NCBI GenBank assembly: GCA_026026165.1
Contig: JAPEUD010000002.1
Location: forward strand, 682,001-746,000
Direction of reading: 5' to 3'
From: Sarea resinae
Taxonomy: Eukaryota
Length of the DNA: 64,000 bases
Below, in pieces: positions 37,948-40,860 of the stretch. A program made the translations under genes and the position numbers. Each line of letters starts with the position of its first letter. Position 1 is the first letter of the stretch. Under the pieces are notes generated by a model. It was not told the DNA's origin. It was given only the letters and a program-made list of their open reading frames with translations, and did no database searches.

Positions 37948-38481
37948 ATGGCCTCACGCATTCAGATCCCTCTGGACGCTTTGACGTCGCGTCTCAATCT
38001 CGGTGCTCGTTTCGATAGCGTCCGTTCGCAATCCATCTCCTCGAGATTCGCCAACCTGAAGCCCGTGTCGGAATTCCTCGATGTCAAGCGTCTGTCGAAA
38101 CCCGCCGACTTCACAGAGGTCCAAACGAGGGTCAACTACAACTTGAGCTACTTTTCGAGCAACTATGTGGTGGTCTTTGCCATGCTCAGCATCTACAGCT
38201 TGTTGACGAATATACTCCTTCTCTTCGTCATCCTCTTTGTCATGGGTGGCATGTACGGTATCGGCAAGCTGGGCGGACGCGATCTCGAGCTTGGCTTCAC
38301 CAGATTAACCACCTCCCAACTCTACACCACTTTGTTCGTCATCTCGGTCCCACTTGGCATCATTGCGTCGCCCTTGAGCACTGCCTTGTGGTTGATCGGA
38401 GCAACAGGAGTCAGCATTCTTAGCCATGCATCGTTCATGGACCGACCGATCGAGAATGCTTTTTCCGAGGAGGCGGTCTAG
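37948..38481 (+). CDS. YIP3: PRA1-family prenylated Rab acceptor Yip3 (177 aa)
   Basis: RFANLKPVSEFLD, RVNYNLSYFSSNY, two hydrophobic hairpins, HASFMDRPIENAFSEEAV*. Confidence 0.92.
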   Translation: MASRIQIPLDALTSRLNLGARFDSVRSQSISSRFANLKPVSEFLDVKRLSKPADFTEVQTRVNYNLSYFSSNYVVVFAMLSIYSLLTNILLLFVILFVMGGMYGIGKLGGRDLELGFTRLTTSQLYTTLFVISVPLGIIASPLSTALWLIGATGVSILSHASFMDRPIENAFSEEAV

Positions 38482-38530
38482 GTGGTCGGCCGCGAACTCC
38501 ATACGATGTGCCCCAATGGGGAAGACCATC
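38460..38530 (+). promoter_or_regulatory. putative -1 programmed ribosomal frameshift signal (slippery site, spacer, pseudoknot)
   Basis: T_TTT_TCC at 38460-66; spacer GAGGAG; S1 38473-78 with 38488-93; S2 38481-87 with 38524-30; S3 38497-502 with 38516-21. Confidence 0.6.
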
Positions 38531-39764
38531 AGGGGCGAGACAGGGGAGGGACGGGAGATGGGCGGGGGGACGAGAGAGGCAGTGGGGGGAGCATACCAGG
38601 TTTGAGGAGCTGGACAGCGAGGATGATGATTACTATCGAGTCCGTAGAGGCTCCGAGCCGCAGCGGCGGTTTGTGAGTGACGAACTACGCTTTACGGGCC
38701 TTGATTTAGGACAGGCCAGGAATGCGACGTATGATGATTCATCTTACTCTGATGAGTTGGATGTTGGGGAAGAGGAAGCAGTGACGGTGCAGTTGGCCCT
38801 TCGGGATATTAGAGACAAGGAAGAGATATTGGTTGAAAGGGCTCTACAGAGGATTCGACGGGCACAACTCAAGGGGGAATCGAATGTCACCCTAACGAGA
38901 TCGGAGCTGGATGCTCTGGAGCGAAAGAGGATGCAAACGCGCGACCCAGCGATGCCACAAGGCAAGAAAGGTGGCCCCAGGTCGGCTTCGAGTGGGCAAC
39001 CATCGAGAAGGGCGGTCAGTGACCGCCAATATAGGCCTCCGCAAGAAACTATGCGTCCTAGAGCCGGAACTACAACCGCCTACCCTGACACTAGCTCTGC
39101 TTATGCTTCAGGAACCGTGCCCCCGGGGTTTGCTGCCCCACTACGAGGAGACGAAGCGGCCTATGTGGCAAGGGGTTATGGAGGGCATTCAGCTAGCCTA
39201 CCACCCAGTCCTACCTTGCGATCCAGCTTTCCCCATTCGCCCCCTTCTCCTCGACGCCAACGCCAATATCAAGAAAGTCGATATTATTCTGTCCCCGAGA
39301 CTCTCCAGCCTTCCTCGCGACCTCAATCTTCCTCATCTCGCACTCTTCCCGATGACCCGAATTGGATTCCTCGCTCGCGCTCCGCCTCGTCAACTCCAGC
39401 TGTCCATCCCATCGATGCTTTGGCCTACCAGACCCACCAGCCATCACGCGGCTTCTCTGGCCCCCCTGAAGTCCAGTACTCTTCTGTGCGTCGAGCTCCT
39501 CCATATCCAGCAGGCGCGACAGGCGGGCACACAATGCCAGCCAGCTCCTCGGATCCTACTTTGGCGCGCCGGCCTGTTGGGGCTCCGCTATCCTCAGATC
39601 GCTGGACGGACACTCCAAGTACCGAGGATGACGAGGACGAAGACGACGATGACGATGATAGTGGCGTTCACGTCGAGTTCCCTGAGATCGTCGAGCCTCG
39701 TGCCTCTTCGGTGAGTGGGGCTGCTGCTGGTGGAGGTGGGCGGAGAAGAAGGCCGAAGCGATAA
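38463..39764 (+). CDS. -1-frame ORF overlapping the YIP3 end; probable C-terminal extension of Yip3 (charged helical motif plus long disordered Pro/Ser-rich region)
   Basis: Frame open 38424-39764. The track's start at 38508 is GTG; the first in-frame ATG is at 38931, after the QLALRD..KEEILVERALQRIRRAQLKG..ELDALERKR motif. Confidence 0.75.
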   Translation, partial: FRGGGLGGRPRTPYDVPQWGRPSGARQGRDGRWAGGRERQWGEHTRFEELDSEDDDYYRVRRGSEPQRRFVSDELRFTGLDLGQARNATYDDSSYSDELDVGEEEAVTVQLALRDIRDKEEILVERALQRIRRAQLKGESNVTLTRSELDALERKRMQTRDPAMPQGKKGGPRSASSGQPSRRAVSDRQYRPPQETMRPRAGTTTAYPDTSSAYASGTVPPGFAAPLRGDEAAYVARGYGGHSASLPPSPTLRSSFPHSPPSPRRQRQYQESRYYSVPETLQPSSRPQSSSSRTLPDDPNWIPRSRSASSTPAVHPIDALAYQTHQPSRGFSGPPEVQYSSVRRAPPYPAGATGGHTMPASSSDPTLARRPVGAPLSSDRWTDTPSTEDDEDEDDDDDDSGVHVEFPEIVEPRASSVSGAAAGGGGRRRRPKR

Positions 39765-40860
39765 CAATAGTGTCGCTAGGCTCCTCATCCTCTGCTCGGT
39801 CATTCCTAGTTCAACTCGTAGTACATCTGTTTGCTGTTTCGCTCCTGACTATGTTCCTATTCCATTGTCTGTTCTTGCCTTCTTGTCTTTCTTGAATCCT
39901 TTTGGCTGGCTCCCTCTATTGAGGATACACATGGGGCTGTCTGTATGGCTGTGTTTGCATTTTCTAATAAGCGGCGTTCCTCTTGCCTGTTCTAAAATTA
40001 TAGACTTTAACATCATTCATGGATATGTTCTTCCCAACTTGTGCAGAGCAGCTTTATACGTCGCTGGAGTAGGCAAGGCAAATTACCTTCACCGAGGGCC
40101 CACCTCCACTTCTACTCTGAGGTTAGTTGGTTGCTCTACTAGAAATGCTGGTCACGAGGTGCTGCTGATATTCACTGGATTGGTCTTTGCTTCCGATATT
40201 TCGCATTCATTTGGATAACCTCTATTCTGGTCTGCGGAGGATGTGGGCTGTATTCACAGAAGCAGCTCCTGGCTCCGATATCTCGCTTTTCTTTGACGCA
40301 TTCCGTGAGGCTTAGTGAGTATATTCACTATACTGATATCTATTTCCGACATCCCGCTACTCCATTCAGTGCTTCTGATCAGGTCTAGGGGGAGCAGATC
40401 GAAGTCACTGCAATCATTTTCATCTACGGTAATCCGTGGTTGTTTCAGTGTTCCTGGGGGAGAATGTCTGCATTCACTTTTGGCTTTCGCTGTCCGAAAA
40501 TGCGTCACTTTTCTGATGAGGTCTACTTTACTTAGCTATAACATTTGCAGAGCAAGTGTGGACCTGTCTTCACTGGCTCTGACTACTAAACACCGACATC
40601 CTACTGAAGGAGACAATCTCATTCCCAGCATCTCAGTCCGGGTGTTTTCGTCATCGTTCGGATGTGACTTATGCTGAAGAATCTTAACAAACCACTCAAA
40701 GATGCCCACTCATGTGAATATCTATCTCTAGAGAAAGGCATTGACATCAGCTGGCCCGAAGCGATGACTTGCTCTGAGTATATATCTCTTCTAGACTCAC
40801 TTGTTCTATAGAGTATCTCGGAGGACGAGCATCAGACTTACCTTGTGGCTCTCTGCGAAC

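What the first reader, a model, noticed from the sequence alone, without database searches (positions are those of the whole stretch)
38424..39764. Candidate cellular -1 programmed ribosomal frameshift fusing Yip3/PRA1 to a hidden 433-aa extension
Seen: a second ORF in the -1 frame relative to YIP3 is open from 38424 to 39764 and overlaps the last 58 nt of YIP3. Its listed start (38508) is GTG. The first in-frame ATG (38931) lies after the most protein-like motif (QLALRD..KEEILVERALQRIRRAQLKG..ELDALERKR), and there is no room for a separate promoter. Five codons before the YIP3 stop the mRNA reads GCU UUU UCC (U_UUU_UCC, 38460-66), where P-site tRNA-Phe can re-pair perfectly in -1. Established: viral -1 frameshifting uses a slippery heptamer, a 5-9 nt spacer and a pseudoknot. 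Inference: the locus makes both 177-aa Yip3 and a ~605-aa fusion (...ENAF-FRGGGLGGRPRTPYDVPQW...) that replaces the EEAV terminus with a long disordered cytosolic tail. The heptamer is non-canonical because A-site UCC to UUC has a mismatch. I cannot confirm whether this has been published.
Basis: partly seen in the sequence, partly recalled or inferred. Interest (0 to 1): 0.92.

Follow-up and report, generated by a model that had tools for sequence, protein, structure and literature searches.

The report
Known YIP3 -1 frameshift, new orthologue

Summary
YIP3/PRA1 (37948-38481, 177 aa) is overlapped by a 446-codon ORF in the -1 frame (38424-39764). U UUU UCC lies at 38460-38466, five codons before the YIP3 stop.

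Malagnac et al. 2013 (PMC3777964) showed that Podospora anserina YIP3 makes a short form and a long form by -1 frameshifting. Their signal has the same heptamer, a bulged stem or pseudoknot 2 nt downstream, and is conserved across Pezizomycotina. This window has each of those features.

In 28 of 29 related metagenome loci the slip site, the TAG at +19 and a long -1 ORF are kept. An ATG near the start of the 3' ORF is present in only 14 of those 28. Over 41 nt from the slip site only 2 columns vary, against 48 of 50 third codon positions upstream.

No plausible intron exists. The public 600-aa gene model joins the two frames through a 14-nt pseudo-intron.

One point may go beyond the paper. Synonymous sites stay frozen up to 38530, where GACCAUC can pair with the stem-1 loop over 7 bp. 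The 2013 yeast reporter insert ended before the matching position. This is unproven.

Novelty: already known. Interest is low.

The parts
37948..38481 (+). YIP3/PRA1 zero-frame ORF, 177 aa, stop TAG at 38479-38481
   Evidence: Pfam PRA1 PF03208 at E 7.5e-41, residues 33-173.
38424..39764 (+). ORF open in the -1 frame (446 codons). After the shift it is translated from 38463 or 38466 to the TAA at 39762-39764. It is the extension found only in Pezizomycotina.
   Evidence: 134 homologues at E <= 0.001, and 24 of the 120 listed are gene models that also carry PF03208. No Pfam family at E <= 1.
38460..38466 (+). Slip site U UUU UCC (zero-frame codons GCU UUU UCC)
   Evidence: Identical in 28 of 28 related loci that hold the junction. 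Same heptamer as PaYIP3.
38467..38468 (+). 2-nt spacer (GA)
   Evidence: The paper gives 2 nt for PaYIP3.
38469..38500 (+). Stem 1 hairpin. The 5' arm is 38469-38478. The 9-nt loop 38479-38487 begins with the YIP3 stop UAG. The 3' arm is 38488-38493 plus 38497-38500. The 3-nt bulge GAA is at 38494-38496.
   Evidence: MFE fold. RNAalifold consensus with 10 of 10 pairs kept in 18 of 18 sequences. Pair counts. Hairpin alone -12.7 kcal/mol. One compensatory pair against the Podospora oligo, compared by eye.
38524..38530 (+). Candidate 3' strand of pseudoknot stem 2 (GACCAUC), complementary to loop bases 38481-38487 (GGUGGUC). This is my inference.
   Evidence: 7 pairs kept in 14 of 14 distinct rows, with one G-U to G-C change and no double change. 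Duplex -8.8 kcal/mol, but 395 of 5000 shuffles do as well. Codons GGA AGA CCA invariant in 18 of 18 sequences.
38511..38521 (+). Possible small hairpin CCCC-AAU-GGGG between stem 1 and 38524. Weak.
   Evidence: 4 pairs, 96.4% of cells paired, no double change. RNAalifold instead pairs 38510-38513 with 38533-38536.
38769..38942 (+). The only confidently folded part of the extension: two helices (residues 105-139 and 148-162 of the product counted from 38457). It covers the conserved LALRDKEE..ALERIRRAQ..DALER motif.
   Evidence: AlphaFold2 on alignment A1: 10-residue blocks over residues 111-160 have mean pLDDT 85-96. 294 of 435 residues are below 50. Alignment.

Best explanation
The locus is the Pezizomycotina YIP3/PRA1 gene with its published programmed -1 ribosomal frameshift.

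Most ribosomes read 37948-38481 and release the 177-aa Rab acceptor. A minority slip back one base on U UUU UCC (38460-38466). A structure that starts 2 nt downstream promotes the slip. It is a G-C-based 10-bp stem with a 3-nt bulge, its loop holds the YIP3 stop codon, and it probably closes into a pseudoknot.

Ribosomes that have slipped continue in the -1 frame to 39764. They make a 605-aa protein: Yip3 with its last four or five residues replaced by about 432 residues. That tail is mostly disordered and has one conserved helical hairpin.

Shown here: the anatomy and its conservation. Shown in Podospora only: an unspliced mRNA, the long protein, and 1% slippage in a yeast reporter. Inferred: that the same happens in this organism, which tRNA slips, and the role of the long form.
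For: - Anatomy as described.
- The published case has the same heptamer, a 2-nt spacer, a 3-nt bulge in stem 1 and a 3' ORF found only in Pezizomycotina.
- The Podospora reporter oligo printed in the paper, compared by eye from GCTTTTTCC on, is identical at 39 of the first 43 positions. Two of the four differences form a compensatory pair in stem 1: C-G here (38474 with 38492), U-A there.
- In 28 of 29 related loci (one starts downstream of the junction), all 28 have TTTTTCC, TAG at +19 nt and a -1 ORF. That ORF runs 334-462 codons to its stop in 25 of them and off the contig end in 3.
- The first -1-frame ATG after the slip site is at codon 16 or 17 in 14 of 28 loci and at codon 29-130 in the other 14. 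In the window it is at codon 157.
- Among 18 distinct sequences, 2 of 41 columns vary from the slip site to +40. Upstream, 48 of 50 third codon positions vary. For -1-frame third positions it is 2 of 14 against 48 of 50, Fisher p 2e-9.
- This frozen block continues past the YIP3 stop, where only one frame is coding.
- Stem 1 is the RNAalifold consensus in 18 of 18 sequences.
Against: - There is no direct evidence from this organism. The only RNA-library contigs found cover 38477-38549, 38842-38992 and 39250-39900, and none bridges the slip site.
- The fold of 38460-38530 is no more stable than shuffles: z 0.11, and 102 of 200 shuffles fold as well.
- Within my 18 sequences the stems never change on both sides, so their pairing is compatible but not demonstrated. 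Every shuffle control equals the observed values.
- The heptamer and the spacer are non-canonical.
- In Podospora the long form alone did not complement the deletion, and no function for it was found.
Confidence: 0.88

Rival explanations
1. A short intron near the 3' end of YIP3 is spliced out in some transcripts and joins the PRA1 domain to the -1 frame, as public gene models draw it.
For: 24 of the 120 listed homologues are fused models that carry PF03208. The model for this very locus, P0001 (600 aa), joins ...LIGATG to PCIVHG....
Against: - That join needs a 14-nt 'intron' (38410-38423). By general knowledge this is far below the size of working fungal introns.
- Of 20 GT..AG candidates of the right phase, none has a GTRNGY donor or a CTRAY branch site.
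- The 6 fused models I read join at 5 different points, which looks like predictor patching.
- In Podospora, 12 cDNAs were unspliced there.
- Splicing would not explain a frozen 41-nt block that starts at the slip site.
Confidence: 0.03
2. The 3' ORF is a separate gene or cistron that is translated from its own start (ATG in some species, GTG 38508 here), with no fusion to Yip3.
For: 14 of 28 related loci have ATG at the position of GTG 38508. Many public models start at MPxWGRP.
Against: - The other 14 loci and the window lack that ATG. Ser, Leu or Val stands there, and the next ATG is 29-157 codons on.
- The -1-frame peptide FFRGGGLGGRPRTPYD upstream of it is kept in distant genera.
- There is no room for a promoter outside the YIP3 coding sequence.
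- The Podospora long form tagged with GFP ran at about 88 kDa, the size of the fusion.
Confidence: 0.05
3. A one-base assembly or sequencing error in the T5 run splits what is really a single ORF.
For: Homopolymer runs are error-prone (general knowledge).
Against: The same T5 run and the same two-frame layout occur in 28 of 28 independent loci. DNA contigs of run X1 match the window with 0 differences, though X1 may be the source sample. The 2008 Podospora genome paper says sequencing errors were discounted for its frame-shift candidates (passage read).
Confidence: 0.01

Closest known systems
PaYIP3 of Podospora anserina (Malagnac, Fabret, Prigent, Rousset, Namy, Silar 2013, PLoS One 8:e73772, PMC3777964)
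   Same: - A 5' ORF that is a YIP3/PRA1 orthologue.
- A 3' ORF found only in Pezizomycotina, in the -1 frame.
- The slip site U UUU UCC a few codons before the stop, and a 2-nt spacer.
- A G-C-based stem with a 3-nt bulge.
- 39 of 43 cassette bases are identical (compared by eye).
   Different: - The slip codon is number 172 here and 170 there.
- One stem pair is C-G instead of U-A.
- The bulge is GAA instead of GAG, and the spacer GA instead of GG.
- The residue at the position of the frequent ATG is Val (GTG) here and Ser (TCG) in the Podospora oligo.
- Nothing was tested experimentally in this organism.
Viral-type -1 frameshift signals such as the IBV 1a/1b signal
   Same: A slippery run followed by a stem whose loop can pair further downstream. 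By my reading the layout resembles IBV: long stem 1, 2-nt loop 1, stem 2 of 7 bp and a long loop 3. The IBV dimensions are recalled, not tested here.
   Different: The heptamer is not X XXY YYZ. The spacer is 2 nt, not 5-9. In yeast the Podospora element did not stimulate the IBV slip site as the IBV pseudoknot does.
Edr/PEG10 and Ma3, mammalian cellular -1 frameshift genes
   Same: Cellular genes that extend a protein by a -1 frameshift. The paper notes that the Edr pseudoknot also has a 3-nt bulge.
   Different: Those genes derive from retroelements. YIP3 shows no such origin, according to the paper.

Membership tests
Pezizomycotina YIP3 -1 frameshift (PaYIP3 type) | The 5' ORF is a YIP3/PRA1 orthologue | tested here: met
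   PF03208 at E 7.5e-41, 139.5 bits against a cut-off of 30.1.
Pezizomycotina YIP3 -1 frameshift (PaYIP3 type) | The 3' ORF overlaps in the -1 frame and is homologous to the extension found only in Pezizomycotina | tested here: met
   Frame arithmetic. 134 homologues, and every source name shown is a filamentous ascomycete. 28 of 28 loci are in the -1 frame. Direct alignment with the Podospora 3' ORF was not done, because no Podospora protein was at hand.
Pezizomycotina YIP3 -1 frameshift (PaYIP3 type) | Slip site U UUU UCC shortly before the zero-frame stop | tested here: met
   38460-38466, with the stop 19 nt after its first base.
Pezizomycotina YIP3 -1 frameshift (PaYIP3 type) | A stem that starts 2 nt downstream, has a G-C base and a conserved 3-nt bulge in stem 1 | tested here: met
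   The bulge at 38494-38496 is GAA or GAG in all 18 sequences.
Pezizomycotina YIP3 -1 frameshift (PaYIP3 type) | Stem 2 closes a pseudoknot | tested here: inconclusive
   Two candidate partners for the loop exist. One is UGCC at 38509-38512 (4 bp, -2.0 kcal/mol). The other is GACCAUC at 38524-38530 (7 bp, -8.8 kcal/mol). There is no double compensatory change. The paper's figure was not visible.
Pezizomycotina YIP3 -1 frameshift (PaYIP3 type) | One mRNA, unspliced and unedited across the junction | tested here: inconclusive
   No RNA contig bridges the slip site. No plausible intron in the DNA.
Pezizomycotina YIP3 -1 frameshift (PaYIP3 type) | The long fusion protein is made | not testable with these tools
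   Shown only for Podospora, by GFP Western blot.
Canonical viral-type -1 PRF signal | Heptamer X XXY YYZ | tested here: not met
   U UUU UCC: the A-site codon UCC becomes UUC, with a mismatch or a G-U pair at the middle base.
Canonical viral-type -1 PRF signal | Spacer of 5-9 nt before the structure | tested here: not met
   The spacer is 2 nt.

The most novel reading that the evidence does not exclude
The stimulatory RNA may be longer than the cassette tested in 2013.

The stem-1 loop GGUGGUC (38481-38487) would pair with GACCAYC (38524-38530). This would form either an IBV-like pseudoknot with a 23-nt loop 3, or a kissing contact with a second hairpin (38510-38513 with 38533-38536).

The Podospora yeast reporter insert ends at the position that corresponds to about 38516. 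A truncated element could therefore explain two results from that paper: the low 1% efficiency, and the failure to boost the IBV slip site.

Support:
- Codons GGA AGA CCA are nucleotide-invariant in 18 of 18 sequences. In the same sequences, 15 of 15 equally conserved codons in the ALERIRRAQ motif vary at the third base.
- The invariance stops right after 38530.
- The one variable pair changes from G-U to G-C.

Against:
- No double compensatory change was seen.
- A 7-bp match arises in 8% of shuffles.
- I could not see which stem 2 the authors drew.
Probability: 0.35. Interest if true: 0.4.

Novelty: already known. Interest (0 to 1): 0.2.

Why it matters
According to its authors, YIP3 is the first non-retroviral cellular gene of a eukaryote shown to extend a protein by a -1 frameshift, and it has been kept for over 400 million years. 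This window only adds another orthologue, so it changes nothing in principle.

Two practical points follow:

- Public annotations handle the locus badly. They use pseudo-introns, 3' ORFs started at internal codons, and the name 'Prenylated Rab acceptor 1' on proteins that lack the PRA1 domain.
- The frozen nucleotides reach further downstream than the tested reporter insert. That gives a cheap experiment on why the element worked so poorly in yeast.

Tried and rejected
- **RNA evidence.** One metatranscriptome run (X2, contigs only) holds parts of the stretch: 38477-38549 with 6 differences, 38842-38992 with 0, and 39250-39900 with 12. None bridges the slip site, so it says nothing on splicing or on a single transcript, and DNA carry-over cannot be excluded.
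- **Own genome.** No genome is held for this window, so a second YIP3 copy could not be sought.
- **Thermodynamics.** The 71-nt fold is no better than shuffles.
- **Covariation in my own set.** The sequences are too conserved. There are 0 pairs with changes on both sides, and the shuffle controls are uninformative.
- **Function of the extension.** No Pfam family matches at E <= 1. The AlphaFold2 model is mostly disordered, with mean pLDDT 51.1 and pTM 0.25. I did not send it to a fold search, because one helical hairpin would give meaningless matches.
- **Earlier scan notes.** None on YIP3.
- **tRNA genes.** None in the window.
- **Later literature.** Searches for 'frameshifting'+'Yip3', 'programmed ribosomal frameshifting'+'prenylated Rab acceptor', 'PaYIP3', and 'frameshift'+'YIP3'+'Pezizomycotina' found the 2013 paper. 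They also found one review and one unrelated yeast paper, both seen in the listing only. No follow-up on the structure turned up in that library.
- **2008 Podospora genome paper.** Additional file 2, the table of frame-shift candidates, is an old .doc and I did not open it.

Full report
**What is there.** The + strand carries a 177-aa ORF from ATG 37948 to TAG 38479-38481. It is a PRA1/Yip3 protein: Pfam PF03208 at E 7.5e-41, residues 33-173. A second frame, one base back, is open from 38424 to 39764 (446 codons) and overlaps the last 58 nt of YIP3. GTG at 38508 is in that frame. Its first ATG is at 38931, after the best-conserved motif. The zero-frame codons GCU UUU UCC occupy 38458-38466, and UCC is the fifth codon before the stop.

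**The second ORF is real coding sequence.**
- 134 proteins match it at E <= 0.001 among 8000 scored candidates. The 120 listed that carry a source name are all from filamentous ascomycetes.
- The top hit, P0001 (100% identity, 600 aa), is the public gene model of this locus. Its source names it Sarea resinae.
- 24 of the 120 listed hits also carry PF03208, so gene predictors fused the two ORFs in those cases.
- P0001 does this by removing 38410-38423, a 14-nt 'intron'.
- The six fused models I read join at five different points. That is what ad hoc patching looks like, not a conserved splice.
- Pfam finds nothing in the extension at E <= 1.
- An AlphaFold2 model built on a 20-sequence alignment is disordered, with 294 of 435 residues below pLDDT 50. 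The exception is two helices at residues 105-139 and 148-162 (10-residue block means 85-96 over residues 111-160). They cover the motif LALRDKEE..ALERIRRAQ..DALER.

**It is published.** A full-text search for 'frameshifting' and 'Yip3' found Malagnac et al. 2013, PLoS One 8:e73772 (PMC3777964). I read its abstract, Introduction, the Methods section on frameshifting efficiency, all Results, part 1 of 2 of the Discussion and the list of supplements. The figures are not held. In Podospora anserina:
- The YIP3 mRNA spans two ORFs, and 12 cDNAs showed no splicing or editing at the junction.
- The proposed slip site is U UUU UCC at codon 170.
- A stem-loop, 'possibly a pseudoknot', starts 2 nt downstream and has a conserved 3-nt bulge in stem 1.
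- A GFP-tagged long form of about 88 kDa was seen on Western blot.
- The cassette gave 1% frameshifting in a yeast dual reporter, against 0.3% for an out-of-frame control.
- The authors found the 3' ORF in all Pezizomycotina examined except Ascosphaera apis and Arthrobotrys oligospora. It lies in the +1 frame in Capnodiales and in one Ophiostomatales species.
- The site had been flagged earlier. The 2008 genome paper (PMC2441463, passages only) mentions 14 genes that may need a frame-shift or read-through. I did not open its table.

**The window against the published features.**
- The slip site is identical.
- The minimum-energy fold of 38460-38530 and the RNAalifold consensus of 18 sequences both give the same stem. 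Bases 38469-38478 pair with 38488-38493 and 38497-38500. There is a 3-nt bulge (GAA, 38494-38496) and a 9-nt loop (38479-38487) that begins with the stop codon UAG. The stem starts 2 nt after the heptamer.
- I compared the paper's printed reporter oligo by eye. From GCTTTTTCC on, 39 of the first 43 bases are identical.
- The four differences are the second spacer base, the third bulge base, and two bases that face each other in the stem (38474 with 38492). That pair is C-G here and U-A in Podospora, a compensatory change.

**Related DNA.** One scan of metagenome contigs with the extension alignment gave 29 loci. One starts downstream of the junction. In the other 28:
- All have TTTTTCC, TAG 19 nt after its first base, and a long -1 ORF.
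- That ORF runs 334-462 codons to a stop in 25 loci and off the contig end in 3.
- The ATG that many gene models use as a start (MPxWGRP) is present in 14 of 28.
- In the other 14 that position holds Ser or Leu, and the next ATG is 29-130 codons on. In the window it holds Val, and the next ATG is at codon 157.

Conservation among these loci:
- The loci and the window make 18 distinct sequences.
- In the 150 nt before the slip site, 48 of 50 third codon positions vary.
- From the slip site to +40, only 2 of 41 columns vary.
- For -1-frame third positions it is 2 of 14 against 48 of 50, Fisher p 2e-9.
- This block runs past the YIP3 stop, where only one frame codes, so double coding cannot explain it.
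- An air-metagenome DNA run shows the same thing from another side. Many distinct contigs pile up on 38458-38536, and few lie anywhere else on the stretch.

**Limits of the structural evidence.**
- The fold is no more stable than shuffles: z 0.11, and 102 of 200 shuffles fold as well.
- In my set no pair changes on both sides, so the shuffle controls are uninformative.
- The two paired columns that do vary keep pairing: U-G to U-A in 2 of 14 distinct rows, and G-U to G-C in 4 of 14.

**Stem 2.** Two partners for the loop are possible:
- UGCC at 38509-38512 gives 4 bp and -2.0 kcal/mol. The pairing is 5 bp where Ser (TCG) replaces Val or Met, as in Podospora.
- GACCAUC at 38524-38530 gives 7 bp and -8.8 kcal/mol, or -11.4 with GACCACC.

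The second partner is my own inference. For it:
- The codons GGA AGA CCA are nucleotide-invariant in 18 of 18 sequences. In the same sequences, all 15 invariant residues of the ALERIRRAQ region vary at the third base, and Arg also switches between AGR and CGN.
- The invariance ends right after 38530.

Against it:
- A 7-bp match to the loop within 60 nt arises in 395 of 5000 shuffles.
- RNAalifold offers another use of the region, pairing 38510-38513 with 38533-38536.

The 2013 reporter insert ends at the equivalent of about 38516, so it lacked this segment. That might bear on the low activity in yeast. It remains a hypothesis.

**Rivals.**
- Splicing: 0 of 20 GT..AG candidates of the right phase have a consensus donor or a branch site.
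- A separate start codon is not conserved.
- An assembly error is excluded by 28 independent loci with the same layout.
- RNA contigs of one metatranscriptome touch the 3' ORF but do not bridge the slip site. They decide nothing.

**Mechanistic detail.** Tandem slippage leaves Ser in the chain and predicts the junction ...ENAFSRGGG. In this case tRNA-Phe moves from UUU to UUU, and tRNA-Ser from UCC to UUC with a G-U pair at the middle base, as the paper argues. The paper leans towards single P-site slippage. Either way the product is 605 aa.

**Verdict.** The case is already known, so interest is low.

Noticed in passing
window 38410-38423, and proteins P0001, P0015, P0018, P0036, P0077, P0107, P0094, P0083: Public gene models mishandle this locus in many fungi. 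Some use pseudo-introns (14 nt here) to fuse the frames, and the join points differ between species. Some 3' ORF models lack the PRA1 domain yet are named 'Prenylated Rab acceptor 1'.
   Followed up: partly
window 38458-38536: In a DNA run from an air metagenome (X3), many different contigs lie on this roughly 80-nt stretch and few lie elsewhere on the stretch (summed depth 630 in the 38440-38513 bin; other bins 0 to about 32). The cassette is therefore near-identical across many fungi. Two loose ends again read GGAAGACCACC.
   Followed up: no
window 38508 and the matching codon in L001-L029: The codon at the frequent start position is ATG, GTG, TTG or TCG. The change from ATG to TCG needs two base changes, and both improve pairing of the stem-1 loop with the nearer candidate partner (38508-38512).
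   Followed up: partly
window 38674-38679: GTGAGT, a consensus 5' splice-site hexamer, lies inside the 3' ORF. The frame stays open and homologous across it, so it is probably not used.
   Followed up: no
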